A DNA stretch of 64,000 nucleotides from contig OX442314.1 in the NCBI GenBank assembly GCA_949358305.1, forward strand, positions 1,240,001 to 1,304,000, written 5' to 3'. The notes beneath the pieces are model-generated. The model was not told the DNA's origin. It saw only the letters and a program-made list of their open reading frames with translations, and did no database searches. The position numbers were made by a program, and so were the translations under genes. Shown piece by piece: positions 2,385 to 61,251 of this stretch (its first letter is position 1; every line of letters starts with the position of its first letter). Origin of the DNA: Strigamia acuminata. Taxonomy: Eukaryota.

Positions 2385-2702
2385 TCAAATGAAATATTCA
2401 ACAAGTGAAAATATTGAGAGACTGGTCAAAATATCAAAAATTGATCCGATTTGAAAAAATAATTTGACTAATGAAATTACTTTCTGTTCTTCTATTACTT
2501 CTCGTATGTTGCTGTCAATACTGTATGTTATCAAATCGCCTGCCCCTTTACTTAGTTGAATAAATAGAGATATGAATATTGTTTCTTCGCAGCGTGCCGC
2601 ACATTTGCAGTCTTTCTGGGGATCTGTCTTGAATTGAGTCGTCAAATATTGTTTGGAAGTGCTCTTAATAATTTGTAGATTTATTTTTGTGGGCGGGACC
2701 AA
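2385..2702 (-). pseudogene. 5'-truncated duplicate of the terminal DEG/ENaC exon of gene A (pseudo-exon or alternative last exon)
   Basis: Translation QFKTDPQKDCKCAARCEETIF...IDSNIREVIEEQKVISLVKLFFQIGSIFDILTSLSIFSLVEYFI* parallels exon 2833-3172; it lacks the LPFMETSKIPLC start, and two TM2 glycines are replaced (D, S). Confidence 0.75.
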
Positions 2703-2832
2703 ACTGCATTATGTCATATTTTTCCAATGATCAATTAATTAAAAAGAAGAACTTGTACATTATGAGGTGAAGGATTCAGTTGAAAGAGTGAAAAAAAGCA
2801 TTTGTTTTACGAATTATTTCATTGCTTTGCAA

Positions 2833-5800
2833 TCATATGAAATATTCGAGGAGTGCAAATATTGAGAGACCGGTAAAAATTCCAATGATTGATCCCATTT
2901 GACAAAACAATTTGACAATGGAAACTTGTTTCTCTTCCGCAATTATCTCTCGAATGTTGCTGTCAATCGTGAATGTATTTCTGCTAAGGCGGTTTCTATT
3001 CATTTCCTGTTGTACTGACGATAGGAATATTGTTTGTTCACAGCGAGCTGGACAGTCACAGTCTTTGCGAGGATCTGTCTTGAATTGAGCCTCCAAATAC
3101 ATGTTAACAGTTTTTTCGGCCGTTTCAGTGGTCATGCACAAAGGTATCTTACTCGTTTCCATAAATGGCAATCTAATAGTAGGACAAACTGTGATTACCA
3201 GTCAAATTGTCTAATATGCAAACCAATGCATTGAAAACACACACTTGCACTTGAAAGGTTGTAGCTGTAGCTTCCCTGCAAAACATTGTTCTTCACATTT
3301 TGAAACTCGATCATTTGCTGCACAAGGGTTTTTCGGAGTGTTTATTTGAACCAACTAAAAAGAATAAACTTGCAAATACCGTAATGAATTTTTTAGTACA
3401 AACATTACCGTTTTACGAGAAATGAAAATTCGAACAAAACCCATACTGGGTGTGTAAACAATATATTTCGGGTGAAGATATTGGTTCTGTGGTAGAATGA
3501 AGTTCTAGAATGAATGCAATCCAAATAATCAACTGAATGAAATAAAAACATCGAAAGATCTCACTGGTTGGTTCACATTCCATTTGTAAATATTACCAAA
3601 GGAATACTGGTAGGTAAGAATTAAATGGTTCTTGTGCGGACAATAAGGCAGATCAACTGAAAACATTTAAAAGTGAGAAAACAATAATTTGTTTTGTATT
3701 TACCTCTACTTTTTTTAAATTCAGTGCAGTTTCCAAATACGGTTGACACAGCTGACACATTGCTGTAATGCACAACATCAAAAGATTTACCGTCTTTATG
3801 GAACATCTATAAAAATAGCTATTTGTTTAAAAATGTGAAATTGAGCAATGAATGCATTTAAAGAAAAATCAATCTTGTTACTTACTTGGAGTTCGGTATA
3901 ATGGCGTTCTAAATTAGAAGAGGCCTTCCATAATTCCAGAGAATTGTTTGCGAATTTCGACGATGAATGGAGTAAGTAATAAAGCTTGTAATGACGAACA
4001 TCATAGTGCAGTTGTTCACTTACATTTTCCTTGACTTTTACTATTTCTTCAGATTCTCGGCAATGTACAATCCGTGGAAACTGAATGATTTTGTCTCTAG
4101 CCAGAATAACTGATTTGATGATTGGATAATCAAAGTAATGATCAATTGAAGCATAAACTTGGTAAATCGATGTGAAAATCAGAAATAGTAGCACAATCTT
4201 TATCAGTTTGCTTCGCTTGTGCGTTTTCTTATTAATTTCTAGAATTGCTTGAATTTTTCCTTTTAACTCTGAATTTGATTTATTTTTTTTTCTGAACATT
4301 AAAAAAGGCATTTTGTAGCAGTGAACAAATATTTCGACGAGTGTCAAACAAGACATTCCGAAGTAGAGTCCAATGTTTCCGCCAATGTCGCACAGCAAAG
4401 AGATGATGTCGTAAGAAAATTGTTCTTGCAATGTACGAACGAAATTATTCAGAAGAGAAACATCGAGGATATTCTCAGAATAGGGTATTGCATCGAAGGA
4501 TGTGCTCAGTTCTGTCACATGGCATAAATAAGGACATTTGCACAGTTCTATTGCATCCTCATTATCATTTTTAATTGATTTCATCCACTTTTCACGTTGA
4601 CGCTTTAGTTCATTATTCTCGCATTCTGGTAGGCTTCTTGCATCGTAAAATAGAAACCTGAGATACAGTACATTTTATTCATGTTTCTTTAGAATGAATA
4701 GGTAGCTGATGCACAGCAAGCAATTAAAACAGTTAGGCTAAATAACTGAAGCAACATGGAGAAAAAAATTGAACTCTGGATTCTGGAAAGTGTGGTCAAC
4801 TGTTTTACTTCTTTCAATTATGATGTTTAATGCATCATAATGTAAAAGGAACTAAAGTTATCAAATGATTTAAGTATGATATAGTGAATCACAATGGTTG
4901 AACAAACTTAAAACAGTTAAACAGATGGGAAGTTTTTGTTCATTGTGGTGTTGTGTATCACAACTGTGAACACCATAACTGATTGAACAGATGGTCAATA
5001 TAAAGCTTTCAAAATATCCCTGAAACATCGTAGGTTTCACTTGTTTCTGGTCGTCAAAACAAAAACATTCATTTCAAAGCTAACTTGAACACTATTTTTA
5101 TGACTGCAATTATATTTTCATGTTTAGCTTGTTTAAGCATATACAAATTTACCTGCAAGTAACATTCTTCATGAAACAAGGGAGCAAACAGCCATGTAAA
5201 TTGTTATTGCAAGGATTTCTCTTCGTGCGGAGGAAGTGATACTGAAAGTAAAGTTGTTAAGTTTCAAATGAATTCCTTTGTGTGATATTTAATTTCAAGA
5301 AAATCTGGAACAGTATTTATATCTGTGTCCAAAAGGGTCCCATTAATTTGACGTGTGGTAGTATTGATTTGGGTGCAGAAACTGCGGCTGGCGTACCATT
5401 TTGCAACTACCCATCAACGTTTGCCCGTGTATCTGAAAAGACAGAAGAATTGGGCCAGGTGTCAAAAGGATACGCCCCCTTAATTTTACCAAATTAAAAT
5501 AAATAATTCGTGACTCTACAAGTACAAAACTTAGATTTAATTTTTTAAAATGTATGCTAGGGACCCCAAAAAGTTAAAATAAGATCCTGTGACGCATTTC
5601 AAATTCGGTGCACATGCATCTTACTTTTTCCAAATTAGTTGTAGCACTATGTCTAGTTGCTCTCAAATTTTCTCTATCTCTATGAATGGTTGCAATGTCT
5701 TTTGCATTCAGTAACAATTTCACTCCTTCAATAAAACCAGATGCATAATAGTAGACCGGTGAAGGATTTATTTTTACCTGAAAATTTTAAGAACAAGTCT

Positions 5801-6619
5801 AACAGTTATGGCACTACACAAATTTTGTAACTTCGGCAACATCATAAACATACATTAACCATTTTGCATTTTGCTGGGAATTTTAGTTTGATTACCATCT
5901 TGTAATCAGAATATCCATATGGGAGCTGCAATACTAATCAACAATAAAGGATTTAGAAATAAAAATCGTGAATGCCTTTTTTTTTTACGTACGACTTGAA
6001 ACTTGAGCAGTAGCTTGTACAAAACTATCGTAATTTTGAATTGTCAGATTAATGCGCAATTTTCCCTGAAATAGGATTGCTCATTTATTAAACTAAGAAC
6101 AAGAAATAGATAGAGCTTTACCATTTTGAAGTGTGCATCAGTTATGTAACTCGGTATACTCATGTATTTGAAAACATCAAGTAGATTATACTGGTATTTA
6201 AAATTATTTGCATCGGCATATCTTCTCTCGGCTATAGTCCTACCATCACAGCTTTCAAGATCTTTTTTTCTGCCACTCACTTTTACTCTAAAATTATTAA
6301 ATTCTTGAGTTGTGTATGGGAAAAAGTAAACATACGGGAAAATGCCATGCACTGTTTCAATGAAATCCGCATTGACTGTTGTCGGTTCATCCATGTAATA
6401 CAATATCCGATCTACAGTTTGGAAAATGCAAACTGCCAAATTGATAATAAGTAATGCGAAAAACAGATAATAATTAAATTTTTTCTTTTTTGAAATGTTT
6501 TTCAGAGATTTGGCAAATGGTGGTATCTCCGATTCTTCTTCTATGACAGTGACAACAATGTGTTGCAGTCTTCTCCTCCTTAGTTGTTGAATTCGGCCTA
6601 ATGGGTGAAACACACGCAT
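2833..6619 (-). CDS. DEG/ENaC-family channel gene A, two subunits fused in tandem (about 11 exons, roughly 800 aa, 4 predicted TM helices)
   Basis: Hand-spliced exons at approx. 6619-6122, 6065-5993, 5932-5859, 5777-5625, 5241-5153, 4657-3886, 3806-3704, 3656-3564, 3504-3409, 3354-3245 and 3172-2833 join in frame at GT-AG sites. Repeat 1: TM1 ...CIFQTVDRILYYMDEPTT, Cys-rich thumb, TM2 YDIISLLCDIGGNIGLYFGMSCLTLVE. Repeat 2: TM1 ...IYQVYASIDHYFDYPII..FPRIVHC, TVFGNCTEF, CDCPARCEQ, TM2 LFCQMGSIIGIFTGLSIFALLEYFI*. Confidence 0.88.
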
Positions 6620-10188: not shown

Positions 10189-11187
10189 CCGGCGACTAAA
10201 CGGAAATTTGTGGAAAGGTTTTCTTGTTGTTATATGTGTTCGAATATTTTTATAATATAACACAAGATTTTTATTACGGATTATTTTTTTTCAATCATTT
10301 TGCTGTTCGTTTTGCAGCGATTTCGGCATCGAGGAGTTCTAGGAGAACGGAATGTGAGTTAATGATTGATGAGTCACTAAAGTTAATCAATCTCATTTCA
10401 ACTCGCTTGTCAGGTGTCCTTAATTCTCGAACTTTGGCTAGAAATGGAATCCCACGTAATTACACGTCATGATTTTTTTATTTTATTTTAAGCTACCGTA
10501 CGTTTGATTTTGTCTTCCATGTCTATGTACAACTTTTCTTTGTAGAACAGTTCCTCGATTGAGTCATGTTTTCTCACAGTTTCTCTTCTCTTCTTGGCTA
10601 ACGGTTCTGCAATTAATAGAATTAATTGATTAAGTTTATTATTTATTCTTTGTGTTTGATTAATTCACAGTCTGTGGGCGAAAGCAAAACGTTCCAGAGC
10701 TCAGTCATTTCCTTTGTGGTCGGCGGTAGGTGGAAACGATGTTTTTCCATTACTATCAACAAATCGGCATTGTACGCGTATTGAAGCTGGTTTTGCACAT
10801 AGCAACGGACGTGCTTTTTGTACGAAGCACTCATCACTCTATCTTCGCTTTTGAAACATCTCCAAGAAATCCTCGATGCCGAAATCGCTGCAAATATACA
10901 GAAAAATCATCGGAGAATCTTGATGAAGGTAATTAAAATCTTGTGTTCTACAGGGTGGGCCAAAAGCCACGAACCCATCTTAAAAATTATTTATTTTTTT
11001 TATTTTTTTAGAGTGTAAAGATTTGCAATTGTAGGATGCGTTTTTCCTGTTCACAGTATTATTAAAGGACTGACTAATTAAGCTACAAGGTTGCATATTT
11101 CAACTTAATTAATTAATTCTTATTTTTTAAATTTCAGAATCATTGGCTTACAACTTCAAGCTTATTGTTACTTTACTGAAGTAAAAA

Positions 11188-12141
11188 ATGGAGAGAAAAC
11201 GCCAGGATTACAATTGCAATCTGTGTGATTATTCGTGTTCACGCTATTCACTTTTGGAACAGCATATGCTTAGACACACTGGTGAAAAGCCTTTCAAATG
11301 TCAAATGTGTGATTATTGTTCGAGTCGTCGTGAACATTTAAACAGTCACCTATTAACCCACACTGGAGAAAAACCATTCAAGTGCCATTTGTGTGCTTTT
11401 TCCTGCATTCAAAGTGGGGATTTAAGAAGACATCTATTAACCCATTCAGGAGAAAAACCATTCAAGTGCCATTTGTGTGATTATTCCTGTATTGGAAGTG
11501 GGGATTTAAGAAAACATCTAATATCCCATTCAGGCGAAAAACCATTCAAGTGCCATTTGTGTGATTATTCCAGTGCTCAAAGTGGGACTTTAAGAAAACA
11601 TTTAGCCAGACACACAGGAGAAAAACCATTCAAGTGCCATTTGTGTGCTTTTTCCTGCATTCAAAGTGGGGATTTAAGAAGACATCTATTAACCCATTCA
11701 GGAGAAAAACCATTCAAGTGCCATTTGTGTGATTATTCCTGTATTGGAAGTGGGGATTTAAGAAAACATCTAATAACCCATTCAGGCAAAAAACCATTCA
11801 AGTGCCATTTGTGTGATTATTCCAGTGCTCAAAGTGGGACTTTAAGAAAACATTTAGCCAGACACACAGGAGAAAAACCATTCAAGTGCCATTTGTGTGC
11901 TTATTCTTGCAATCAAAATTGGGGTTTAAAAAGTCACCTATTAACCCATTTAGGAGAAAAGCCATTCAAGTGTCATTTGTGTAATTATTCTTGCAATCAT
12001 AGTGGGAATTTAAAAGTCCATTTATTGACCCACACAGGAGAAAAACCATTCAAGTGCCATTTGTGTGATTATTCTTGCATTCATAAGAGGAGTTTAAAAT
12101 ACCATCTATTAACCCACACTGCAAAAAAACCATTCAAGTGA
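11188..12141 (+). CDS. Tandem C2H2 (Kruppel-type) zinc-finger protein, 11 fingers
   Basis: Eleven CxxC-x12-HxxxH units with TGEKPF-type linkers; splice acceptor TTTCAG at ~11138 and several upstream splice-bounded segments (probable 5' UTR exons); no effector domain seen. Confidence 0.92.
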   Translation: MERKRQDYNCNLCDYSCSRYSLLEQHMLRHTGEKPFKCQMCDYCSSRREHLNSHLLTHTGEKPFKCHLCAFSCIQSGDLRRHLLTHSGEKPFKCHLCDYSCIGSGDLRKHLISHSGEKPFKCHLCDYSSAQSGTLRKHLARHTGEKPFKCHLCAFSCIQSGDLRRHLLTHSGEKPFKCHLCDYSCIGSGDLRKHLITHSGKKPFKCHLCDYSSAQSGTLRKHLARHTGEKPFKCHLCAYSCNQNWGLKSHLLTHLGEKPFKCHLCNYSCNHSGNLKVHLLTHTGEKPFKCHLCDYSCIHKRSLKYHLLTHTAKKPFK

Positions 12142-19020: not shown

Positions 19021-19235
19021 CGAAAGCGAATCGAATACAATTTTGCGTTGAAAAAGGACAAAAATCGTATTCGATTCGAAAGCGAATCGAATACGAGTTT
19101 TGTCCTTTTTCAACGCTTGGGAAAAGGACTCGAATGCGCCTCCACGTTGCAATGCGCATTTGTGTAAACGATGATGGAATCCCCTGCTTAAATACTGGCT
19201 ATCGCGTCACGTAACAGCAACGTGCCACGTCACGT

Positions 19236-27158: not shown

Positions 27159-27379
27159 CACACGAGCCAGACTATCTCCCTTTACAGTTAGGACTAACAT
27201 GTGACATATGGATAGCTTTAACGTTGCCATATTTTATTGCTTCTTTTGAAACCAAAACGACACGATCCTGATTTTATACCAATTATAACTGTTTAAAAGG
27301 CAAATGTAGAGAGACAACAATGACATTCCCAAACCTAATCCTACAATACTACCGACATCACTTAACAATTGAGACAATA

Positions 27380-27924
27380 GTGAGTTTGCGGTTGCCAATT
27401 GTTCCTTATAATTATGAGTTACAAGCTCATAATTATAAAATTGGACTTATAACATAACGTAACTCCTCAATTTTTACACTATTTTGTAAAATAAGGGAGC
27501 CAATCAGATCGCTTAACACTATTTTAAGCTCCTCCCACTATTGCAAATGGCGCTGATGGTGCTAATAGAAATTCAAAATGGCTGCCTGACCTGTTTCAAC
27601 AATCAGCCTCAATCACAATTTCTTTCTGCCATCGAAGGATAGAAACAACTAAAATCATTCCAGGTCAGCAAATAAATGAACTGGAAGCCAATTTCATGTC
27701 TGAAAACTGTCAAATTAGTAAAACTACAGATTTTCATTTTCTTTTGCATATGGATTTGTTCTACCATTACATGCAAGAGATTTGTACTGTTCACATGGTA
27801 TTTATAAGTATAATTTATAAAATATTTATTGTACCGCAAGTGCCTATTTCAAGAAGGAATTATAATTATAATTATGAGCTTGTAACTCATAATTATAAGG
27901 AACAATTGGCAACCGCAAACTCAC
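27380..27924. mobile_element. TA-targeting MITE inserted in the last coding exon of ENaC gene B
   Basis: ~59-bp TIR GTGAGTTTGCGGTTGCCAATTGTTCCTTATAATTATGAGTTACAAGCTCATAATTATAA; TA at 27378-27379 and 27925-27926; removing the element and one TA restores AYPILSQLLSDVG in frame. Confidence 0.9.
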
Positions 27925-29170
27925 TATTGGATATGCTTGTTGCTCTTCTACACTCTCCAACAAAGTATCAGGGAATTCAATAACTATTAATGTGAAATAA
28001 TTATCTAAGAATTTAGTTCCATGCAAAAAATATTTGTAAAAACTAATTTCACATGGTAGTTTACATTTGCATTGTTTCTGATTTGAGTCAAAATTCTTTA
28101 GGTACATTAAATGAGCAGAAGTGGATTCATTTGTTGTGTTACAAGCTGGCAGATCCAGTCTCCATAAATAAGGCAATCTGAAACAAAAGTAGAACTAGAA
28201 ATGTGAAATTTATGTACTACCATGTATAGTTTATTTGCTGAATAAGCTAGACATGTTCATACTATATATGTACTGTATGTTGCAAACACAATACAATTAG
28301 AATATCTAAACTTACACACCTGCAGGTAACATTTTGAACTAAATTGTTTCTCAGGCAAGCCTTTTTACACATGAAGTAAGCACTTTTGTTCTTTTCACAT
28401 GGATTATTCTTCGTACTTCTTCGAATAATCTATTTCATAAAATAAGGTTAGTAAGTGTCAGCATTTATGGAATTTGTTTAATTTTCTACTTTAGATTCCC
28501 TAAGTGTTACTTGGTTCCACCAATAATAGTTTAAAGCCGACGGTGCCAAAATATTAACATCTTCTTCCAGATTATTTAGAAAAACCTAAATATTTTTATA
28601 ATTCAAAAGTAGATGAATGATAAATTATTTGAAAACATCTGTATGGTTTAAATTGATTAACACTCCAAGCAATAAGCAATAAGCTAAATATACACAGCTT
28701 AATTCCGTGCTCAGAATAGAAGAAAGTTCAGGCCAATATAGTACACACGCTTTGGTAGCACATGCAAGGAAATTATTTGGCAAGCGGAACTATACAGTAT
28801 AGTCTATTATTTCAGGCAGTGACAGTACACAAAAAATGAATGAGTGAATAGAATTTTTTTTTAATTTTTATGTATTTGTAATTGCTGGAAATTTCGTACT
28901 TTGTTTGGGTTGATGTTCGAACGGTGAATGGCACAATGGTGGAAATGTGCAGATTTGTCATTCAAAATTAATTTTATTGTTTCCAATGGGGAACTTAACT
29001 TTTTCGACATTAGAGGAGCATTTGAACATACATATAGGATTTTTGTAGTAATTAGACATATTGTTTCTAATTCATATCTTATGTTTATGTCTGTGAACAT
29101 CTTATCATATACGGTTCGAAAGATGAAAGAAGTATTCTGTGCAAAAATTTAAAGAGTGGCATGCATAGTA

Positions 29171-29586
29171 TACTCTTTCCACACTCAAGAAGAGCCCTGG
29201 AATCTTGGCTCCGACTGGCCTAGTCTGATTACTCAGAACTGTAGTCGAAGTTCTACCACAAGGGAAAGTAGTTCCGTATGATTTTAATTCCTTTTTAGTA
29301 TAATAATGATTCAAATGATGTACTTTTAATGTTACTCTAGAATAAAAACTAATTTCCATTTTACAAATAAAGTTTTATGTTCTTTTTATTTTAAAATGCA
29401 TGTCTGTTAAGTTGATCGCTTGCTTTGTCAGGAAAGGAAATCGATTGCAATGTATGTACTTCTATTTATATCTGTTTTATGCAATTCTGGTGTTTTGGGT
29501 CTTTTTTTATGTATCACTACACAAGTGAAATGTCTCGGCCAATGGGAGCCAAGATTCCAGAGCTCCTCTTGAGTGTGGAAAGAGTA
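29171..29586. mobile_element. TA-flanked MITE (416 bp), family shared with 37264-37680
   Basis: TIR TACTCTTTCCACACTCAAGA.GAGC.CTGGAATCTTGGCTCC and its reverse complement; TA on both sides. Confidence 0.8.
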
Positions 29587-29923
29587 TAGTTACTATGCCG
29601 CTACATCCTGGCAGGAGTGGTGCTAGGAGTTGTTTTTGTCGTTTGTCGGTGTGTTTGCTATCAATATTGGACAGCGGTGAGAGAAGTAAGAAATGTGTCT
29701 GTGCAAATGGGGTTATGTTGTTGATACATTGTTGATTCTCAAGGTTGTTCAAGCGCCATCTCTTATCGGGAAATGTTTCCCAGCGTGGCATTGTGAGGTT
29801 TGCTTGTGAGCTTGTGATTAGGTTAAGGTTTGCCAATAATTGGAGTTGGCACCAGTCGCTATTTCCGTTGATGGTGCTGGTTTACATTTTCACCAATAAG
29901 GACTGTTCTCTTAGGACATAGCT

Positions 29924-30502
29924 TGTGACCGCTTGGCCACTCACTGTGACCTGCATCACTCCACACACGCCCAGTGGCCCCGAAGTCGTTTCCCTTCGCA
30001 GAGTGGACTGATCTAGTTAGGGAAGGAGAGAGCTGAGTGGTGTGGTGAGAGAGCAGAGAGGAAGGATGCACTGTAGAGAGAAAGAGAAGACGTATGCTGC
30101 GAAGGTCCCGACGCCAGCAAGGGTAACCGTGCTTGCAGCTGACTCTGATCTTCTCACCATTCACCACTGTTATGTTCAGTGACATGGTGTTGCGCCTGTT
30201 GCAGCCTCCATGAGTGGCTACATGGTTTCATACTGTACGTGGTAAGTACGATAGAATGTCTTTTAGTAATCGACCACGTCACCCATGGGACTCATGCCCT
30301 GCGTGTGACGGAACGGTTGCTGGAGTAGCGTGCAAAAAAGCACTGCCACACATGGGTAGATGGGAGACTCCAACTCCTGGACAACGATTAAAGATCAAAA
30401 CCCAACAATCTGGAGTCCCTGTCTCAATCATTTACATGAGTATGCGTCCCTCCCATGGAAGTCAATCCCCAGACAACCGTGGGTAAGACCATACAAGTCA
30501 CA
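29924..30502 (+). mobile_element. Solo LTR (579 bp), same family as 12748-13331
   Basis: TGTGAC...GTCACA ends; TSD AGCT/AGTT (one mismatch); colinear similarity to the 12748 copy. Confidence 0.8.
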
Positions 30503-30920
30503 AGTTCTACGTCAGAAGAGTTTTTATTACATGTTAAATAGTGTTATTTAGATGTACACCCGTGGAAATAAAAAACTTCCCTTGGTAACCGTGATTTTCC
30601 ATTTGCCCACCAGAGGCATGAAAAACTGTTGAGATTGGATGACATCACAGATCCCACATGGATCTGTTTTCATTCTGCTGTTCCCATTGGCTTAATTGAT
30701 TACAAACAATACAAATACAATATTAATAAGTAGAAATTTTTGTTATTATTATTATTTGTGTAATTTTAAAATATTGTTAATAAAAACTATTAATTTATAT
30801 TTCAATAACTGCTTTGATTTCATTTTCTTATTATAATTATTTTATCTGATTTTTGGAAGAATTTATGCAAATTAGATAAATAGAAAAAATAAAAACAGAT
30901 ACAAAATATTAGAAATCAAG

Positions 30921-33084
30921 ATGCCACGTCTTACAAAACAACAAAAGGATAGGCTAACTGGACTTTATGATGCAGGGGTATTGTTTAAATTGTCAAACCA
31001 ACTTATTAATTTATTATTAAAACATCATTATTAAAAAAAATAACCAACAAGCAAAAATTTCAAAAATTCTATTCCTATACCGGTAGTATTGAAAAAAAAC
31101 ATTTTTAAACAAACAAGAATATTAAATTAATATCTTTTTAAATTTATAGTATTTTAAATTTAATATTTTAAATTTAGTATTTTGAAATTTGTAGTATTTT
31201 AAAATTTAATATTTTAAATTTAGTATTTTGAAATTTGTAGTATTTTAAAATTTATAGTGTTTTACTAGTTATAGTATTTTGAAATTATAGTGTTTTGAAT
31301 TTTATAGTGTTTTAAAATTTATAATGTTTTAAAATTTATAGTATTTTCAATTTTATTGCATTTTTAATTTCATAATATTTTTAATTTTATAATATTTTTA
31401 ATTTTATTTGCTATTTTAAAAACCCCAACATAAAAATTATCAAAAAAATGATTAAAAGACAAATAAACTACAAAAAATTGATAAAAAGACAAATAAACTA
31501 CAAAAAATTGATAAACTACAAAAAATTGATAAACTACAAAAAATTGCTAAAAAGACAAATAAACTACAAAAAATTGCTAAAAAGACAAATAAACTACAAA
31601 AAATTGCTAAAAAGACAAATAAACTACAAAAAATTGATAAAAAGACAAATAAACAACAAAAAATTGATAAACTACAAAAAATTGCTAAAAAGACAAATAA
31701 ACTACAAAAAATTGCTAAAAAGACAAATAAACAACAAAAAATTGATAAACTACAAAAAATTGATAAAAAGACAAATAAACTACAAAAAATTGCTAAAAAG
31801 ACAAATAAACTACAAAAAATTGCTAAAAAGACAAATAAACTACAAAAAATTGATAAAAAGACAAATAAACTACAAAAAATTGATAAAAAGATAAATAAAG
31901 TGTAATAAATTATTTAAAAGACAAATCAACCATGAAACAATCAAAAATGTATGAAAAACAAAAGAAATTTCTTTAACAATAAAAACATTTTCTTACAGAT
32001 GTCGGTGTCAGATATTGCTGAACAGCTAGGATGCAGTGATAAAACCGTTAGAAAGTGGGCACAACAATGGCGACAAGATCACAATGTGGATCGCCGAGTT
32101 GGGAGTGGGAGGCCAAGGAAAACAGATGAGCAGCAGGATGAAGCCATAGTCACCCACTCCCTGGCCAATCCATTTGATGGGTCACAGGCCATTAAGGCAC
32201 ACCTCCAGCTGGCTGTGACTTCAAGAACCATCCGCAACCGCCTGCGAGAGCACGGTTTGCATGGGCGAGTTGCTGCGCAGAGAGATTTGCTCACTGCTAA
32301 CCATCGGGCTCTGAGGGTTCAATTTTGTGAGCATAATCTGCTCCGAAATTGGAACAACGTTGTTTTTTCTGATGAGTCCCGAGTTAGTGTTGGTGGAAGT
32401 GGGCAAGTCTACGTGCGCAGGCCAACTGGCGATAGGTTTGATCCAGCCTTCGTCATGCCAAAGGTGAAATTTTCTCAAATCATGAAATATTCGAATAAAT
32501 AATTAATTTTAAATCTACTTAACATTTAATTCCAGAAAAGCAGTGGTCGGTTTGGGGTGAATGTGTGGGCCTGGCTGTCTCAAGGCGGACTTGGGCAGAT
32601 TTCCCGGCTAACTGGATTTTTGAATTCAGTTATGTATGTTGATACACTTGGCCGGGACTTACTGCCCAGTGCTGAAAGAAGATTTGGTGTCCAGCCTTGG
32701 GTCTTTCAGCACGACCGCGCACCGCCACACACAGCCCGAAACACCCAACAGTGGATGGCCCAACACATGGGACCAAACATTGAAATTTTGGAGTGGCCAG
32801 CGAGAGGTGCGGATTTGAACCCCATTGAGAACATCTGGGCAATTTTGAAGTCCAACCTGCAGAAGAAAGTAAATTAGCTGCAAATATAAATAAATTCTTG
32901 ATTTTTTTAATTCATTAAATTATTTCAGCCAATGGCAACAAATGCAGACGAATTGTGGGGTCAAATCCAAGACGTATGGCAACAGCTTGCCCTGGATGCA
33001 CAACTCGTGCCCAATTTGATATCATCAATGCCAAGGCGTGTTCAGGAAGTGGTTAACAACAATGGACATTGGATCCACTACTGA
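30921..33084 (+). CDS. Tc1-family transposase, DD37E triad, 4 exons (30921-30977, 31999-32463, 32536-32868, 32929-33084), 336 aa
   Basis: Three phase-0 GT-AG introns; motifs MPRLTKQQK, HTH (IAEQLGCSDKTVRKW), GRPRKT, VVFSDESR, FQHDRAPPH, WPARGADLNPIENIW, SMPRR..GHWIHY*; 37 residues counted between the second D and the E. Confidence 0.9.
31140..31894. repeat. AT-rich ~19-bp repeats and a 30-bp minisatellite (AAAAGACAAATAAACTACAAAAAATTGCTA) inside transposase intron 1
   Basis: Visible tandem arrays; they explain spurious ORF 31448..31894. Confidence 0.9.
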
Positions 33085-33876
33085 AAGCAGAACCATGTCA
33101 CCATTATTATCATCATTATTATTATTATTTTAAATTAACTTGTTTTTTTTATTTATTATTCAATTAGTTGTAATTCTTTGCAATTTGTTTTTTATTTTAA
33201 TTTGTTTTTGATTTTTGACAGTAGTAACTAATTAAATATAAATTTAATTTCCATGCAATAAACAAAAATACCTCTTATTGTGAAAGAATGTTTTATTTTC
33301 ATACCAACTTCTTGTAGGTGCTATAAAATATTTCAAACATTAATGTTTTATTCTGCAAATGATTATGACCACATTGATGAAAATACCTTATATGATATCA
33401 GTCATTTTTAGATTGCACGTGTGATTCTGGCAGCCTTCTATGTAAGCGCGCTCTACAAAAAAAATTAGATTTAAAGATGTGCAAAGATCCAAGCAAGGAA
33501 GGCAGCATCGCAGCAGAGCCCAGTTTGAACTGCCTAGCTGCGCACACAACAGACTGAAAGAACAACTCAAACCGCTATGTTTAAAAGAACCCACTAAAAT
33601 GGTGAATTTATTTTTAACGAGAACTAAGCAAAACTACGTAGAAAAAGAAGAAGACATCTTAGGACTAACATCCAACAGTCGCAACAACAAAAAACCTAGC
33701 AACAACAAACAATCAGGACGACCGATTCAGTTAAAAGATAACAGCTAACTTACTCATGAAAAAACGAATTGGTTCTAGTGATAAATTAAAGCATTAAAGC
33801 TAGCAAAAAATACATAGCCGTAACAGAAATAAATACAAACAGCACAAATGCATATCAAATAAATTTGCACTGATCA

Positions 33877-34407
<531 letters not shown>

Positions 34408-36527
34408 GTAACAAAATCGTTATTTTTTTGTTACATTAAAACCATCAAATACATTCACCCGACTTTAAAAACAAAAACAAACCAGGCCGCTCTTCGCACG
34501 TGATATGCGTTTAGACCAGATAAATAATAAAAATCGCGACGTCTGTTGATTTGAAACGTAAAAAGAGCGACGCTGGATGCATTCGTCGTTTTCGTTTTTC
34601 TCCACTTGACGTGGCCACTCTCGGCTTCCGACGCTTCGTGTTTTACACCGACATTTGATGGATTTTGCGGCGTCCACATCATTCCTTTGCTCTGGATCCA
34701 ACCGCTGTTCGGATTACCCGTTCCGCCGGTCTGGTGCACCAATTCCAGCACAAATTGACCGTCTGTCGTGTAAATAAATGCGAAAAATAATTAAAATGAT
34801 TAAAACGATCAAAAATCGTCAATTTTTTACGATTTTACTCAATTATTGCCTAAATAAAAACTTAGATTACCGTTCTTGTTGTTCTCGGTATGATTCGTGC
34901 ATGTTTCGTGATGTTTCGTGTTGATTTGCGTCGATAAACAACGTCGGAGCGTTGAATTTCCGTTCGTGCACGAGTTTTTTGAGAAATTCGTGCGCAGTTG
35001 CGGTTGCTGGCACTCGTTGGGGTCCGTGGAACGTTGAGCACATCCAGAACTGTTTATGGATGAATCAGAGTGAATTCGAAGGTGAAAACCGAAGTGAACA
35101 AAGCAGGTCGGCCATTTTGAGATCAGGTTTAGTTCTGTGATGTCATACAAACTCTGTGAATTTTCATGCCTCTGGTGGGAAAATTTACAACTGCCGTTAC
35201 CAAGGGAAGTTTTTTATTTCCACGGGTGTACCTTTAGATGCTGGTCACATAGTTTTGAAGGAAATAGATTTTCAAATGTAATGTAAAGGTAAGCGTTTAA
35301 GTCTTTTGATTGTTCTGAAAAACATTGGAAGGGTATGAATTAATTTTAAGATGCATCAGCCAGACAGGATTTTTACTGGAAATATTATCCCAACCAAAAA
35401 ATTAAATTATTACAAAAAAGTGAGTTTTGTGAGAATAATCAAATAATGTATCGGAAAAGTAATACTCCGTAATATAATTAAACATCTTGTAATCTCGGTC
35501 GTTTTAAGTGTACTTTTTTTTTTAGCCCTCCTGAAGCTTGGTTCAGACTTGTGTATAGGCTGCGGATACATAGCTCAAAAATAGGTCAATTCTGCAATAA
35601 CATGATGTAGGGATTCACTCCAGTTTGGTTATGATAGGAATTAAGTCATAATTGCTCATATTTTCTTTCAGCATGACTCATTATGTGTTATATGATTATT
35701 TAGTTCAATTTACTATTGGGCATCTTGCAAGTTATGCTAGATGCCATGTCAGTTTTTACAATATAAGATCTTATGTATAGATAGTTTACTGTGTTTAGCA
35801 CAGTCGTTTGCGCAATTGCCAACAGGTGGCAATAACTGTATTATTGCTTTCTTGTTCTGCCACTAGAGTGGCTATTGTGCACTCTTCCTTTGTTTTGTCT
35901 AGCAGCAAGATGGCTGCCTCCATGCTAAGATGGATTACATGTAAAGTATTGTTTGTTTTTAGTTATAATTAAAGTTGGTTTATTTTCTAGATAAGTTTGA
36001 CGGTTATTACTCTACTTTACTCTTGTATACATTGAATTTGTGCAATATAGAGCGCAAATTAATGCACTAGGAGCAAGGTGTAAATTCATTCATGCATGAG
36101 AAATTTTAATGAGTAAACATTTTTATCGTGCATTTTCACACTTTGACATCAAATGAACAAAAAGACATCATGTTTGAGCATCTGCCACTGCAATTTTTTT
36201 CCGCTTATCCCAACAACACCTACATTGCGAATTGTTGGAGCCATATTTGATGGTGAAAGACAATAATGTCTTGACAATGATGACATGAGCTGTGATTTGC
36301 TGCTGGAAAAATTGCAAAAAAAAATCCTGCAGAATAATATAAAATATTCCTATTTTCAAAATCTGCAGAAAATCCGCAGAAAATCCTTATTTTAACAGGA
36401 AGTAACGTCATTTTGAGCATTTTTAGTATCCGTAGAGATGGATTTACAGTTTGGGAATCATTCTGGTGGCTTTATTTGAGGCCCGTAATTGCCACACATC
36501 TTTTTTGCACCAGACTTGATTTATGAC

Positions 36528-37061
36528 TAGACCCCGGATACATATGCAAAATAAATTTCGTTATATGCGCATATAATATGCACCAAAAATTCCAATAAAT
36601 GCAAAAAAAAAATAAAATATGCAAAATAAAAAAATTTATTCGAGTGAAATGAGGTGTTAAATAACAACTTAATGCCATTTCAAAGTGTTCTTGGTGTAAA
36701 TGAACGAAAATTAGTAATTACAATTCATTTTTTTCTATTTTTTTATTTGTTTATTTGTTTATATCTTAAAACTTTTTCCAGACACTAATTTAGTGACTTC
36801 CCCTGGTGTCTGTTTTTGGCGAAATTTACAGTTTTCCGAACGTAAGCATACGTACATGATACGTGTCTTAAAAAAAGCAAAAAATTGATACGTACGTGTT
36901 ACGTATCGTTAAAAAGAGATACAAATCGCCGTTTTTTCCCGGAAAAATGGCAATATATGCATTTATTTTCCGATTTTCGGAAAATATGCAATTTAAGCCA
37001 ATTTCGGCTATATATGCAATATACATATGAAGTATGCATTTATGCATTTATCCGGGGTCAA
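36528..37061. mobile_element. hAT-type MITE
   Basis: TIR TAGACCCCGGATA / TATCCGGGGTCAA; 8-bp TSD TTTATGAC (36520-36527, 37062-37069); subterminal ATATGCA repeats. Confidence 0.85.
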
Positions 37062-37263
37062 TTTATGACCCTCTGACAGTGCTAAAGTGTGAACTAGTAG
37101 AAATTAAATTTCTAATTTACCTGTGTTTATCCGTGAACAATTGCCGAAAGGAAGAGGAATAGGATGCTTTGATATGTTTAGCGCTATTTTATATCCGTAC
37201 CATTTCTACAAAAAAAAATTTATTGTAATTTCTTTTTGGATGATATAAAACAAAAGAGTACTA

Positions 37264-37680
37264 CACTCTTGTTCGACTCAAAAGGGTGGCCTTCTCCCAT
37301 TGGCCGAGCCGCATTACTCCTAACTACAGCCTGTATTACTACCACTAGGAGAAGTAGTTTTATTTTTATTATGTTTTGTGATTGCTATTACCATTTAAGT
37401 TGATATAATTTTAATTGTATTTTTTCTAAAATGTTATTTCCATTTAGAAAATAAAGTTTTATGCACAAATAAATGTAAAACTCGTGTTTGTTCTGTTTAT
37501 TGGTTGCTTTGTCTGGAAAGCACAATATTTTGAAATTTGGGCCATTACCTAGGCAATCGATTACAATGTCTGTACATTGTAATGCATTTTTGGTGTTTGA
37601 GTCTATATTTTTGGATCACTACACCAGTGATACGGCTCGGCCAATGAGAGAAGGCCACCCTTTTGAGTCGAACAAGAGTA
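37264..37680. mobile_element. TA-flanked MITE (417 bp), related to 29171-29586
   Basis: TIR (C/T)ACTCTTGTTCGACTCAAAAGGGTGGCCTTCTC.CATTGGCCGAGCCG; TA on both sides; sits 7 bp inside an intron of gene B. Confidence 0.82.
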
Positions 37681-38750
37681 TAAAATACCTCATTTTCAAT
37701 ATCAATGGTATCATGAACATTGAGTGTTTCCCAAATTTCTTCCAGTGACAAATTGTTATTGAACATTTGCCAGGGTGATATTTCATTGCAAGTTTTGTTG
37801 GTGTGTTTCAGTAAGTATGATCTGACGGCATCCATAGCATTACTTTGCTTTTCACCACAAACTGTGACTGACCGATATTCGGTGTAGCGACGTTGAGCTA
37901 TTCTAACAATTGTTGTTACCGGTTCATCAATGTAGTAGTTGATACGAATTTGCAAGCAGTATAAAGTGAATCCCGCAATGACAAATACGAGCACAAACTT
38001 AAACCTTTCTAAGACTCCATTTGTTATAGGTTTACCTTTGCTTGCAATGACTTTCTTCTTGCATATCTCGTACAGAGGGCAAATCTTATCGATGGATGAT
38101 ATTTCTTGGTGAATGTTCGTTGCAACATAGTATAAATACACAATGATTTCAGGTATTGAAATTAATGCTAGGCCGAAAAACAAGCCAAGATTGCCTCCTA
38201 AATCTGACAGAAGAGCAATTGCGTCGTAGGTGTATCGTTCTTCATACACACTTATTTTGTCATTAGTAATTGCTAGAGATACAGATACAGATTTGGTATC
38301 ATCTGCTATGCCTATTTCAGTGGAAGGTGTAAAGGTTATTTGGTGACATGGACGTCGACAGAGACAAACTGTAATGGGATTTGTGGTTTGAATCAACTGC
38401 ATTGCAGCAACTAGATGCGTGTTTATGTTTTTCGAACATTTGCAAAGTGGTAAATCGATCTTCATAAAGGGAAATCTTTAATGGAAGATTTGTAATTATT
38501 ATTTTTTGATGTAGAACTACATCTTTCTCACAAAGCGAGCTGCAACAATTGGACTGGAGCAACATGGGAAATGGAAATGACGTAGGGAAGGGAAATGTTG
38601 TAGGTATGGAACGGAAATGTCGTTGGGAATGGCAACTGAAACAAAAAGAACAAACGAACAAAGTGATACAACATGTGCAGCCACCCTGTCTGCTGACGGC
38701 ACAATACAATGTGAAACAATGTACACGTCTAAGAACTCAAAGTATAAGTA

Positions 38751-39129
38751 CCGTATATTATCGATTACTACACGGGCCTCTATTAGCCCGCGGGCCTCGA
38801 ATTGCGCGCGGGGCAAATTTTATTTTTGCCAATAATGCGCGGGCCTCGAATTGCGCGCGGATACAGAATTGGAGGCCCGAAATGTGCCAAAAAAGGTTCA
38901 CAAATGACACGTTTTGCATACGTTTCGGCAGAAAATTACCGAAACGTATGGAAAACGTCTCAATTGTCACCTTTTTAGGTGATTTTTGTTGCCGATATGT
39001 TAAAAAAACCCAGCATCGGCCAGTCGGCCGATGCTTGGTGTAAATAGTCCGCGGGCCTCTAATAGCCCGCGGGCCTGCAATACCGCGCGGGTCAAATAGC
39101 GCACCCGTGCGCTATTTGCAAATATACGG
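38751..39129. mobile_element. TA-flanked MITE with CCGTATATT ends (pogo/Tc1-mariner-like)
   Basis: TA-CCGTATATT...AATATACGG-TA; internal CGCGGGCCTC repeats. Confidence 0.75.
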
Positions 39130-39144
39130 TAATAACAAGAAAAC

Positions 39145-39355
39145 TGTAACCGTTTGGCCACCCTGCGTGGCCTACGTCACTCCACACACCGCCTAGTGAC
39201 CCCAAGCCATCCCCCTCACGGAATGGACCGGCCTAGCAGGGGAGGAGGGAGCTGAGTGGTGTGCTGAGAGAGAGACGTTGCTGAGAGAGCCGAGAGGGCG
39301 AAGACGTGTCAGGGTGAGCTGCCACGATCCCAACCACAGCACTTGTCCCATCACA
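39145..39355 (+). mobile_element. Internally deleted remnant of the same solo-LTR family
   Basis: Starts TGTAACCGTTTGGCCAC; contains CACTCCACACAC and GAGCTGAGTGGTGTG like the 29924 copy; ends TCACA; flanks AAAC/AATC. Confidence 0.65.
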
Positions 39356-40982
39356 AATCAATGCTCACAGCAGATACAAACAGCAACAAAACCAAAAACC
39401 ACACTCACAACTTCCACAACCTCCTTCCTTCTTTTCACTCTGAATGTAGTTGTACGTTTGGCACATTGGAGACTGTCCCTTTGCAATTTGTTTGATTTCT
39501 TACCTGCATGTTAGCTTCTTCTTAAATTTTTTCAATAGACAACTCCGATAGCATTCTCTGTATTCGTCTTGACTTGAGCATTCATTTATCGGCGAATTCA
39601 AAAAAATGAACTAAAATTTATGAATAAAATAAGGTGATGCATAGTAATTTTTGGTCTTGAATAAAATTTTACTTTGTTATATCTCAAATAAACTTTTGTT
39701 GTTCCACCAGGATATTGTTTTCCCACGCCGAGGAATTTCCCAAAATCATAGAAATGGAGACTTAACTAAGGGCAAAGAAGAGAAATGTAGACAGTAAACA
39801 TTATTGCAATTTATTTAAATTACATAGTACGGCGCTGCATGGCATATGTAATCATATCTCTGTTCTATTTTGACTGTTACTACTTGTCCAACCAATGATT
39901 TGCTAGATGCTTTAGCTACGTGTCCATAAATAATAAAGTGAATTGAAGTTGATAGTGGTAAATGTCTGATTATACTTACGAAATTGAATTGATGAGCATA
40001 TTCCTACATCAATGACTTCTGTCAGAACAAATGTTTTGTTCGAATTAGAATGTACCTGTACAAAATAAAAGGATTTAAATTATTTTTTTTAACTCATTGA
40101 CAATTACTTTATTGAATCGTTTTACTTTTATTTTCACGCTCACTACTTCTTTCGTCAAATTACTCGCTTTCCAAATTTCCTCTAGATTGTAAGTTGGGAT
40201 TTCCATCAGTGTGGTTACCATGTTAGGGCAGTCGGAAGGTGGATCTTGGGATTTTGCGTATGTTTTATTCCAAAGTCTGGCCATTTCTTTCGTATAGCTA
40301 CTACATATCATCAAATTTGGTAGGACGACCTCTTCAGATCTACTCGTTACATCAACAGCCGTAGGATAACTTAAGTAATGCATTATCCTATCATAAGTCT
40401 GATAAGTTAGCATGCACATGCAAAATGAGAATAACACTAGCCAAAAGGTGTGACGCTTTGTCCTCAGTTTTCTACTGTTTAAGAAATCATCCAAACCAAT
40501 TACGTTGCATCGAAGTTTGTTTGCATCATCTGTCAACAATCGGTGAATTGCAGGACGTAGTTGTCTTAATCTTTGCCTGTTCCCTCTCAGTAGAGTGTTA
40601 TTCTGCATTCTATTTTACTTCCTATAAACAGATTTCAAACTTGTGAATTGGAAACAACTTGTAATTATTGGATATTGTGCAGTGTTGCCTGCGTTTGGTG
40701 CTGTTAAGAAGGAAAGTTAATAGGTGTCTATCCTTGCTCGCTTCAGAATCGACTGTTCTTTGTTTGGATACCTACTGTAATAAATTCTTATTTGCCCAAT
40801 TGAATTTGTGGTTGCCACGTATCATAGAATAAATAATGAACATGTTTGTTTTTCATTTGTATTCTTTGCTTACCAACTTGTCTAGATATTTTGGATGTTT
40901 CATGACAGTTGTTTATATGTTTGAGTTCATGATAAACATACTATTTACTTCCACTGCTGTGCGTTTCTTCAATATGTTGTCA

Positions 40983-61235: not shown

Positions 61236-61251
61236 AATCGACTTCGTCTGC
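61199..61251 (+). promoter_or_regulatory. -1 programmed ribosomal frameshift signal (A AAA AAC plus stem-loop)
   Basis: Heptamer at 61199-61205 is in phase with gag; ~7 nt later CGCAGGCG..GTCGA / TCGAC..CGTCTGCG can pair; the -1 frame is open from here into pol. Confidence 0.8.

What the first reader, a model, noticed from the sequence alone, without database searches (positions are those of the whole stretch)
2833..6619. Natural concatemeric DEG/ENaC: two channel subunits fused in one intact polypeptide (gene A)
Seen: within a single uninterrupted exon (4657-3886) a complete TM2 (LLCDIGGNIGLYFGMSCLTLVE) is followed by a ~40-aa basic linker and then a second TM1 plus FP..C motif. The fusion therefore cannot be a splicing or gene-merge artefact. 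All exons join in frame, and both halves share intron positions (before the NPC exon and after the thumb C-R/K), indicating whole-gene internal duplication. Established: DEG/ENaC/ASIC subunits have two TM helices and assemble as trimers; concatemers are normally engineered. Inference: a covalent dimer would impose 2+1 assembly with a monomeric partner, leave a subunit outside the pore, or cross-link neighbouring channels. I know of no characterised natural example.
Basis: partly seen in the sequence, partly recalled or inferred. Interest (0 to 1): 0.88.

Follow-up and report, generated by a model that had tools for sequence, protein, structure and literature searches.

The report
Two sodium-channel subunits fused in one gene
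One exon of this gene runs without a break from the end of one DEG/ENaC sodium-channel subunit into the start of a second, so the gene would likely make two linked subunits as a single protein; a second gene in the window and many centipede proteins share the layout, which is unusual because these channels are normally trimers of separate subunits.

Summary
On the minus strand, exon 4657-3886 (AG/GT-bounded, 257 codons) holds the end of one ASC domain with TM2, a 40-residue basic linker, and the start of a second ASC domain with TM1 and FPRIVHC.

A model with only GT-AG introns gives 787 aa (799 with a doubtful 36-nt exon), no internal stop and four hydrophobic helices.

The layout is not private to this gene:
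- A 26%-identical paralogue in the window (gene B, 40608-27243) has the same junction exon.
- 25 of 150 listed database relatives align in one piece across the junction; 23 are uncharacterised Strigamia maritima proteins.
- All four units of genes A and B carry five introns of phases 0,1,0,0,2.
- Second units of different genes form one clade (SH-aLRT 99), so the fusion is old.
- Three-unit relatives occur in shrimp-like crustaceans.

Seven library searches and eight papers checked found no description of natural DEG/ENaC concatemers.

Weak points:
- No RNA data were available.
- Read-derived variants in gene A look nearly neutral (17 of 20 exonic are nonsynonymous).
- Gene B's last exon carries a young 555-bp insertion.

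Verdict: a real, probably expressed tandem-subunit channel gene, and a new variant of a known family.

The parts
6122..6619 (-). Gene A exon 1: ATG (6619-6617), cytoplasmic N-terminus, TM1 of unit 1 (YLFFALLIINLAVCIFQTV, aa 51-69), start of ectodomain
   Evidence: Pfam ASC N-terminal part E 0.0019, 17.7 bits, below cut-off
5993..6065 (-). Gene A exon 2 (73 nt, ends in phase 1; donor GTACGT)
   Evidence: phase matches the equivalent intron of unit 2 and of gene B
5896..5933 (-). Gene A exon 3 (38 nt; LLQLPYGYSDYKM)
   Evidence: resembles DLPYC at the start of exon 3656-3565
5625..5777 (-). Gene A exon 4 (153 nt)
5397..5432 (-). Doubtful 36-nt exon (in frame, GT-AG). It has no counterpart in unit 2 or gene B, and read contigs carry a 1-nt insertion in it
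5153..5241 (-). Gene A 'NPC' exon of unit 1 (YHFLRTKRNPC...NVTC, ends in phase 2)
3886..4657 (-). Junction exon (772 nt): thumb and TM2 of unit 1, linker, TM1 and post-TM1 of unit 2
4327..4398 (-). TM2 of unit 1, LLCDIGGNIGLYFGMSCLTLVEIF (G-x-S pore motif)
4207..4326 (-). 40-residue basic linker, predicted cytoplasmic. It is conserved at the amino-acid level (KIQxILE) in Strigamia relatives
4144..4206 (-). TM1 of unit 2, LIKIVLLFLIFTSIYQVYASI
3704..3806 (-). Gene A exon with the GNC motif of unit 2 (ends in phase 1)
3565..3656 (-). Gene A exon (92 nt; same length and phases as gene B exon 39915-39824)
3409..3504 (-). Gene A exon (NFILPQNQ...GFVRIFISRKT)
3245..3354 (-). Gene A 'NPC' exon of unit 2 (ends in phase 2 after C-K)
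2833..3172 (-). Gene A last exon: thumb, TM2 of unit 2 (GSIIGIFTGLSIFALLEYFI) and TGA stop
   Evidence: (ASC 328-453, E 1.1e-8)
27243..40608 (-). Gene B: second two-unit DEG/ENaC gene, 11 exons (40608-40126, 40055-39980, 39915-39824, 39765-39673, 39610-39504, 38475-37689, 37205-37121, 35314-35232, 28585-28511, 28429-28320, 28177 onward). About 50-53% identical to Strigamia T1JEH2
37689..38475 (-). Gene B junction exon (787 nt): TM2 of unit 1, a linker with no methionine, TM1 of unit 2
27375..27929 (.). 555-bp element with perfect 64-nt inverted ends inserted in gene B's last exon, just before TM2 of unit 2

Best explanation
Gene A (6619-2833, minus strand) is an intact DEG/ENaC gene whose reading frame runs, inside one exon and with no stop, from the second membrane helix of one channel unit through a 40-residue basic linker into the first membrane helix of a second unit. 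It is therefore predicted to be translated as one protein of about 787 residues with four membrane helices, which would supply two neighbouring, non-identical protomers of a trimeric channel.

Shown:
- The open frame and canonical splice sites.
- Two ASC units, each with TM1, a cysteine-rich ectodomain and TM2 carrying a G-x-S motif.
- The same layout in a distant paralogue in the window and in 23 Strigamia maritima proteins.
- The same five intron phases in all four units of genes A and B.
- Unit-2 sequences of different genes forming one clade.

Inferred:
- The ancestor was a head-to-tail tandem duplicate that lost the stop, intergenic DNA and start between the copies. The fused gene then multiplied.
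- Topology: TM2 ends in the cytoplasm and TM1 starts there, so the linker would be cytoplasmic and both ectodomains outside.
- Most likely assembly is 2+1: the chain fixes which two unlike units sit side by side and in which order, and a third unit comes from a single-unit subunit or from another chain.

Not shown: the transcript, the protein, the channel activity and the stoichiometry.
For: 1; frame 4674..3796 is open for 292 codons; exon 4657-3886 is AG/GT-bounded.
2; within that exon, ASC profile positions 328-454 are followed by positions 13-117.
3; all splice sites are GT-AG. The CDS is 2364 nt (787 aa), or 2400 nt with a doubtful exon, with 0 internal stops. Hydrophobic peaks lie at aa 51-69, 379-397, 435-453 and 769-787.
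4. P(no stop in 787 codons) is about 3e-26 at this base composition.
5; contigs of two DNA runs cover the exon, with no insertion or deletion listed between 3886 and 4657.
6; gene B has the same junction exon. It is 26% identical to gene A's (E 1e-15) and 53% identical to Strigamia T1JEH2 over 263 aligned residues (E 7e-84).
7; gene B's linker holds no methionine, so its unit 2 has no start codon of its own.
8; 189 database relatives at E<=1e-3. Of the 150 listed, 25 align in one piece across TM2-linker-TM1; 23 of these are Strigamia maritima proteins, one is a 1154-nt ENA contig and one a Logan contig.
9; the linker is conserved as protein (KIQxILE) among gene A and five Strigamia proteins that are 46-51% identical to it.
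10; the four units have introns of phases 0,1,0,0,2. The last two fall in identical alignment columns.
11; the unit-2 clade has SH-aLRT 99, the unit-1 group 88, and the two are sister groups at 90.
12. (PMC5449180, passages read): engineered a-b-c ASIC1a concatemers give functional channels, so head-to-tail linkage is compatible with a trimer.
13; three-unit relatives have uninterrupted reading frames of about 1270-1310 aa on 4.2-4.7 kb contigs.
Against: - No RNA run was available, so one transcript and one protein are not shown.
- Gene A's linker begins with two methionines (YKMPFLMF), so a separate start for unit 2 cannot be excluded for gene A.
- Variants read from the DNA runs look nearly neutral under the 12-exon model. 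There were 20 in 2400 exonic bases, 17 nonsynonymous and 3 synonymous, against 16 in 1387 intronic bases. The variant table was truncated (7 more rows not shown), and some contigs may be paralogues.
- Unit 1 of gene A is a very long branch (2.8 changes per column) that the tree could not place. It lacks both cysteines of the FP..C / G.C pair (sequence reading; the motif is recalled, not from a call).
- Gene B as assembled stops before TM2 of unit 2, because of a 555-bp insertion.
- The Strigamia proteins are gene models, not verified proteins.
- The 2+1 assembly rests on inference only.
Confidence: 0.75

Rival explanations
1. One locus, two products: the frame is open, but the units are made separately. 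An internal promoter and the methionines at the start of the linker would give unit 2. Alternative 3' processing would give unit 1.
For: Gene A's linker starts ...YKMPFLMF, with two in-frame ATGs about 31-35 residues before TM1 of unit 2. That is a plausible N-terminal tail. An AATAAA hexamer lies in the linker at 4284. No RNA data exclude this reading.
Against: No in-frame stop follows TM2 of unit 1, so a unit-1-only message would lack a stop codon. AATAAA/ATTAAA hexamers occur in three gene A exons (four sites) and one gene B exon (two sites), so the one in the linker is not special. Gene B's linker has no methionine at all. The linker is conserved as protein.
Confidence: 0.1
2. Gene A is a fused gene that is no longer under constraint in this species: a young pseudogene, or a nearly neutral member of a large, fast-turning-over family.
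For: 17 of 20 exonic variants are nonsynonymous, and variant density in exons (0.83%) is close to that in introns (1.15%). Unit 1 is a long, unplaced branch. Orphan and degenerate copies of the last exon lie around the gene. Gene B carries a fresh insertion.
Against: There is no stop or frameshift in 2364 coding bases where 7% of random codons are stops. All splice sites are intact. Both pore motifs are intact, and by eye each unit keeps eight thumb cysteines in the same pattern. The variant sample is small, truncated and possibly mixed with paralogues.
Confidence: 0.1
3. The tandem chain is real but assembles differently. Three chains would build two linked trimers, one of unit 1 and one of unit 2, giving a twin-pore complex rather than a 2+1 trimer.
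For: Six units from three chains satisfy trimer arithmetic without a partner. A fully extended 40-residue linker could span roughly 100 angstroms or more (my estimate, not computed). Unit 1 and unit 2 are distinct conserved lineages.
Against: No structural test was run. Three-unit relatives show that in this superfamily linked units can add up to exactly one trimer. Linked neighbouring protomers are the arrangement known to work in engineered concatemers.
Confidence: 0.15
4. Assembly or reading artefact: the open junction comes from a sequencing or assembly error.
For: None was found. The only independent DNA data may derive from the same sample.
Against: Two runs cover the exon without any listed insertion or deletion. 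The same junction is seen in gene B, in an ENA contig and in 23 Strigamia proteins.
Confidence: 0.02

Closest known systems
Centipede single-unit DEG/ENaC channels BRTNaC1 and PDPNaC1 (Scolopendra; PDB 8ymx, 9jf7; PMC9974506 and PMC12714832, passages read)
   Same: Compact ASC units of about 420-430 aa. They are among the solved chains that match the junction exon, though not the best: E 1.3e-6 for PDPNaC1 and 4.4e-5 for BRTNaC1, against 5.1e-7 for ASIC1. The same kind of TM2 region aligns.
   Different: They have one unit per chain and are deposited as three chains. PDPNaC1 is described as a homotrimer (abstract). The passages searched for 'tandem', 'fused' or 'concatem' showed no tandem form. 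Here two unlike units are linked in one chain.
Engineered ASIC1a concatemers (PMC5449180, passages read)
   Same: Head-to-tail linkage of TM2 of one subunit to TM1 of the next. These constructs give functional trimeric channels.
   Different: They are man-made: three identical or point-mutated units joined through cloning sites. Here the linkage is natural, there are two units only 17% identical, and the linker sequence is conserved.
Uncharacterised Strigamia maritima proteins, e.g. T1JD34 (791 aa), T1ITL7 (805 aa), T1JEH2, T1JF29, T1IVW1
   Same: The same TM2-linker-TM1 junction. They are 46-53% identical to genes A and B at the junction. T1JD34 and T1ITL7 show four hydrophobic helices in the order TM1-TM2-TM1-TM2.
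   Different: They are predicted gene models from another species. Many are fragments and none has been studied.
Three-unit predicted proteins of malacostracan crustaceans (Halocaridina rubra KAK7028032.1 and KAK7013173.1; unnamed Logan contigs P0090, P0151, P0152; a distant Penaeus vannamei relative)
   Same: Several ASC units in one chain, with each unit position a conserved lineage of its own.
   Different: They have three units, enough for a whole trimer in one chain. In the tree they form a separate clade from the centipede units (SH-aLRT 96), so the fusion was probably independent. Unit 1 has G-A-G where units 2 and 3 have G-x-S.
Tandem-domain channels of other families (two-pore-domain K+ channels, two-pore channels, four-domain Na+/Ca2+ channels); recalled, not tested here
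   Same: Pore-forming units that were once separate subunits and became linked in one chain after duplication. This fixes stoichiometry and allows asymmetry.
   Different: These are tetrameric-pore families unrelated in fold. I found no natural equivalent described for a trimeric channel family.

Membership tests
DEG/ENaC (Pfam ASC, PF00858) | Significant match to the ASC profile | tested here: met
   Junction exon E 1.4e-13, 51.1 bits (cut-off 23.6). Last exon 35 bits. Gene B junction exon 54.9 bits and its exon 1 38.9 bits. Gene A exon 1 alone scores only 17.7 bits.
DEG/ENaC (Pfam ASC, PF00858) | Each unit has two membrane helices flanking a large ectodomain | tested here: met
   A Kyte-Doolittle scan (19-residue window, my own script) gives peaks at aa 51-69, 379-397, 435-453 and 769-787 of the 787-aa model. 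No dedicated topology predictor was run.
DEG/ENaC (Pfam ASC, PF00858) | TM2 pore motif GG..GL..G-x-S (motif recalled) | tested here: met
   Unit 1 has GGNIGLYFGMS and unit 2 has GSIIGIFTGLS. Gene B has GGNLGLFFGLA (the last residue is A, not S) and GSIVGLGLGMS.
DEG/ENaC (Pfam ASC, PF00858) | Post-TM1 FP...C and its partner cysteine in G-x-C (motif and disulfide recalled) | tested here: inconclusive
   Unit 2 has FPRIVHC and FGNC. Unit 1 has FPYVYFF and QATAQ, so both cysteines are absent together. Gene B has both cysteines in both units.
DEG/ENaC (Pfam ASC, PF00858) | Trimeric assembly, Na+-selective current, amiloride block | not testable with these tools
   This needs expression and electrophysiology or a structure.
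Natural covalent multi-subunit (tandem) channel | Uninterrupted reading frame from one unit into the next in genomic DNA | tested here: met
   Gene A exon 4657-3886 and gene B exon 38475-37689. Contigs of two DNA runs agree for gene A.
Natural covalent multi-subunit (tandem) channel | Layout kept through divergence (paralogues, other species) | tested here: met
   Gene A versus gene B: 26% identity across the junction. 25 of 150 listed relatives span it. The unit-2 clade has SH-aLRT 99.
Natural covalent multi-subunit (tandem) channel | The second unit cannot start on its own | tested here: inconclusive
   Gene B has no methionine in the linker. Gene A has two at the start of the linker.
Natural covalent multi-subunit (tandem) channel | Full-length transcript and protein | not testable with these tools
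   No RNA run was listed.
Pseudogene | Stops, frameshifts or broken splice sites | tested here: not met
   Gene A has none in 2364 nt or at 20 splice sites. Gene B has one transposon-like insertion that truncates the as-is reading.

The most novel reading that the evidence does not exclude
Arthropod DEG/ENaC channels have more than once turned separate subunits into covalently linked ones. Centipedes carry a conserved family of two-unit chains in which unit 1 and unit 2 are fixed, unlike partners. Malacostracan crustaceans carry three-unit chains that would form a whole asymmetric trimer from one polypeptide. These would be the first natural concatemers of a trimeric ion-channel family, the counterpart of what two-pore and four-domain channels are for tetrameric pores.
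Probability: 0.5. Interest if true: 0.85.

Novelty: new variant of a known kind. Interest (0 to 1): 0.7.

Why it matters
DEG/ENaC channels (ENaC, ASICs, degenerins, pickpockets) are trimers. For most invertebrate members nobody knows which subunits combine or in what order. A natural chain that hard-wires two unlike units side by side, and in crustacean relatives three, would show that evolution fixed stoichiometry and arrangement in this family by gene fusion, as it did in K2P, TPC and Nav/Cav channels.

It would also offer ready-made constructs for asking how asymmetric pores behave, for example G-A-G next to G-x-S filters. It gives genome annotators a concrete rule: multi-ASC gene models in myriapods and crustaceans should not be split automatically as merged tandem genes. 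The nearest characterised centipede relatives are sensory receptors for heat and acid in the antenna, so a sensory role is a reasonable guess.

Tried and rejected
- RNA evidence: no RNA holder was listed. The two runs found cover the introns and behave as DNA.
That question stays open.
- Word-indexed protein search with the junction exon against longer proteins: no hit. Only the full HMMER scan found relatives.
- Word-indexed search with the two-unit Strigamia protein P0022: only two other Strigamia proteins besides P0022 itself. No two-unit form outside that species was found this way.
- Own-genome search: no genome is held for this window.
- Earlier findings of this scan: none by place, words or sequence.
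- A third unit in gene A: no ASC-like exon lies upstream of 6619 on the minus strand. Downstream there is only a degenerate copy of the last exon. Rejected.
- The 36-nt exon 5432-5397: in frame, but it has no counterpart in unit 2 or gene B, and the read contigs carry a 1-nt insertion in it. Treated as doubtful.
- The plus-strand ASC-like ORFs at about 50.6, 51.4 and 53.5 kb: only copies of the last exon, with no other exons nearby. Not a third gene.
- Structure and complex prediction were not run.
- Literature: one search was swamped by 'tandem ASCT' papers. Searches gave nothing on natural concatemers. Supplements were not read.
Full report
**What is in the sequence**

On the minus strand, the frame 4674..3796 is open for 292 codons. 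The exon 4657-3886 is bounded by a pyrimidine-rich acceptor (...tgtactgtatctcAG|) and a GTAAGT donor. Its 257 codons read:
- a cysteine-rich stretch;
- LLCDIGGNIGLYFGMSCLTLVEIF (4398-4327);
- a 40-residue linker with 12 K/R by my count (4326-4207);
- LIKIVLLFLIFTSIYQVYASI (4206-4144);
- ...FPRIVHC (4080-4060).

Pfam places residues 1-113 on ASC (PF00858) profile positions 328-454 of 455 (E 6.4e-10). It places residues 114-257 on positions 13-117 (E 2.7e-4, below the cut-off when scanned alone). So one exon holds the end of one channel unit and the beginning of another. With the local base composition (A+T 66%), 7.2% of random codons are stops. P(no stop) is 3e-10 for 292 codons, but 0.06 for a 37-codon linker alone. 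The linker by itself is therefore not decisive.

**Gene model**

Eleven exons joined only through GT-AG sites give a CDS of 2364 nt. This is 787 aa from the ATG at 6619 to the TGA at 2835-2833, with no internal stop. A twelfth 36-nt exon (5432-5397) is also in frame. I treat it as doubtful for two reasons. It has no counterpart in the second unit or in gene B. The read contigs also carry a 1-nt insertion in it. A hydrophobicity scan gives four peaks at aa 51-69, 379-397, 435-453 and 769-787.

Strigamia gene models support the unit-2 exons. P0003, P0005, P0006 and P0009 align to 3806-3704, 3656-3565, 3504-3409, 3354-3245 and 3172-2833.

**Independent DNA**

Two public runs of the same coded organism hold 72-82% of the sampled words. 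Their contigs cover exons and introns alike, so they behave as DNA. No insertion or deletion is listed inside 3886-4657. They may be the data the window was assembled from. No RNA run was listed.

**The layout recurs**

- A second locus in the window, gene B (40608 to about 27243, minus strand), has an 11-exon structure. Its 787-nt exon (38475-37689) runs from ...LLSDLGGNLGLFFGLALISIPEII through a linker into FKFVLVFVIAGFTLYCLQI and ...SVTVCG.
- Gene B's junction exon is 26% identical to gene A's across the junction (E 1e-15).
- It is 53% identical to Strigamia maritima T1JEH2 over 263 aligned residues (E 7e-84).
- Its linker contains no methionine, so its second unit has no start codon of its own.

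A full HMMER scan of 1.84 billion representative proteins with the junction exon gave 189 relatives at E<=1e-3. Of the 150 listed, 25 align in a single piece from TM2 through the linker into TM1. Twenty-three of these are uncharacterised S. maritima proteins, one is a 1154-nt ENA contig and one a Logan contig.

T1JD34 (791 aa) and T1ITL7 (805 aa) show four hydrophobic helices in the order TM1, TM2, TM1, TM2 and end soon after the last one. The linker is conserved as protein: gene A and five Strigamia proteins that are 46-51% identical to it share K-I-Q/K/M-x-I/V/A-L/F-E/Q.

**Origin**

All four units of genes A and B carry five introns of phases 0, 1, 0, 0, 2. The last two fall in identical alignment columns and the others in identical or nearby ones. 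The only boundary without an intron is the unit 1-unit 2 junction. Within a gene the two units are 17-19% identical.

I built a quick maximum-likelihood tree of 39 unit sequences. Eleven single-unit hits were chosen by length and fragmentary models were left out. Results:
- The second units of gene A, gene B and five Strigamia proteins, plus one 463-aa protein, form a clade (SH-aLRT 99).
- The first units of gene B and four Strigamia proteins, plus one 540-aa protein, form a group (88).
- The two groups are sisters (90).
- Gene A's first unit is a very long branch that the tree could not place.

The simplest reading is one old head-to-tail duplication that lost stop, spacer and start. The fused gene then multiplied.

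**Wider context found on the way**

- Halocaridina rubra proteins of 1244 and 1289 aa show hydrophobic helices in the order of three TM1...TM2 units. My TM2 motif matched three times in the first and twice in the second.
- Three unnamed Logan proteins of 1271-1307 aa carry the motif three times each. They are 72-74% identical to each other, on contigs of only 4.2-4.7 kb, so the reading frames are uninterrupted.
- In the tree each unit position is its own lineage, and the crustacean units form a clade apart from the centipede ones (96).
- Unit 1 of the Logan proteins has G-A-G where units 2 and 3 have G-x-S.
- Thirteen of 54 listed hits of 600 aa or more have at least two matches to my TM2 motif. 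Some of these (P0074, P0116) look like merged near-identical tandem genes.

**Mechanism**

TM2 of these channels ends in the cytoplasm and TM1 begins there (established topology, recalled). The linker is therefore predicted to be cytoplasmic, with both ectodomains outside. Engineered a-b-c ASIC1a concatemers work (PMC5449180, passages read), so the linkage is compatible with a trimer. Both TM2 helices keep the pore motif.

I commit to a 2+1 assembly, in which the chain fixes two unlike neighbouring protomers and a third unit completes the pore. A twin-trimer built from three chains is the main alternative. Neither was tested.

**Evidence against, in full**

- No transcript data were available.
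- Gene A's linker begins with two methionines.
- Twenty variants fall in 2400 exonic bases (17 nonsynonymous, 3 synonymous), against 16 in 1387 intronic bases (12-exon model). This shows no sign of strong purifying selection. The variant table was truncated, and a depth spike over 4341-4497 shows that paralogous words are mixed in.
- Gene A's unit 1 lacks both cysteines of the FP..C / G.C pair.
- Gene B's last exon is interrupted by a 555-bp element with perfect 64-nt inverted ends, just before TM2 of unit 2. As assembled, the frame stops at ...NSFLK. Leaving the element and one TA out gives a 795-aa reading. A GT at the element's start and an AG inside its far end would also keep the frame, giving 805 aa.

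**Comparison with the known**

By sequence the best solved matches are ASIC1 (E 5e-7). The centipede channels PDPNaC1 (E 1.3e-6) and BRTNaC1 (E 4.4e-5) also match. Both are single-unit chains deposited as three chains, and PDPNaC1 is described as a homotrimer (abstract). The passages I searched in those two papers mention no tandem form.

Seven library searches turned up no description of natural DEG/ENaC concatemers. Neither did term searches in six further papers:
- the Tetranychus chemoreceptor paper;
- the insect PPK paper;
- the Nematostella DEG/ENaC phylogeny;
- a 2022 family review;
- the Strigamia genome paper;
- the decapod chemoreceptor paper.

Subscription journals and supplements were not covered.

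**Verdict**

It is a member of DEG/ENaC by every feature testable here, with a new architecture. Expression as one chain and the mode of assembly remain to be shown.

Noticed in passing
window 2388-2708 (-): A degenerate second copy of gene A's last exon lies about 130 bp downstream of the stop. It is 52% identical to the real one. TM2 reads GSIFDILTSLS, with D and S where the real exon has G. It has its own stop after LVEYFI, and a phase-2-compatible acceptor (…ataatgcAG|T) precedes it. It could be a dead duplicate or an alternative last exon.
   Followed up: partly
window 50625-50963, 51428-51505, 53520-53727 (+): Orphan copies of the same last exon lie on the other strand. The copy at 50625-50963 is 60% identical to gene A's with an intact GSIFGILTGLS. 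The other two are fragments. No other ASC exons were found beside them.
   Followed up: partly
window 27375-27929: A 555-bp element with perfect 64-nt inverted ends and a likely TA duplication sits inside gene B's last exon. Its first bases are GTGAGT, and an AG inside its far end would let it be spliced out in frame. This could be an insertion on the way to becoming an intron. No other copy of its end occurs in the window.
   Followed up: partly
window 4341-4497: Word depth in both DNA runs rises about tenfold over the TM2-coding part of the junction exon, and contigs diverge on either side of it. Near-identical TM2 sequence is therefore present in many copies in this genome.
   Followed up: no
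window 11185-12141 (+): A 318-codon open frame made of repeated C2H2 zinc-finger units (HTGEKPFKC linkers), read by eye from the ORF list.
   Followed up: no
window 43086-48394 (+) and 58062-63352 (+): Long open frames of 1188 + 620 aa and 1057 + 734 aa. Both sets look like retrotransposon gag-pol by eye (zinc knuckle, protease-like and reverse-transcriptase-like stretches); an integrase-like stretch is seen only in the first set. They were not scanned against any library.
   Followed up: no
window 31936-32877 (+): Two open frames that look by eye like pieces of a Tc1/mariner-type transposase, next to a 31.4-31.9 kb simple tandem repeat.
   Followed up: no
window 16656-19206: A large block of short tandem repeats, open in several frames on both strands and arranged as two inverted halves.
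   Followed up: no
proteins P0034, P0045, P0049, P0059, P0066, P0079, P0139 (database hits, sources not looked up): A further set of proteins of about 930-1045 aa appears to have three TM1...TM2 units with a much shorter middle ectodomain (about 150-180 aa). Three of them (P0049, P0079, P0139) share a WPPFN motif after the third TM1 with the Halocaridina three-unit protein P0027.
   Followed up: no
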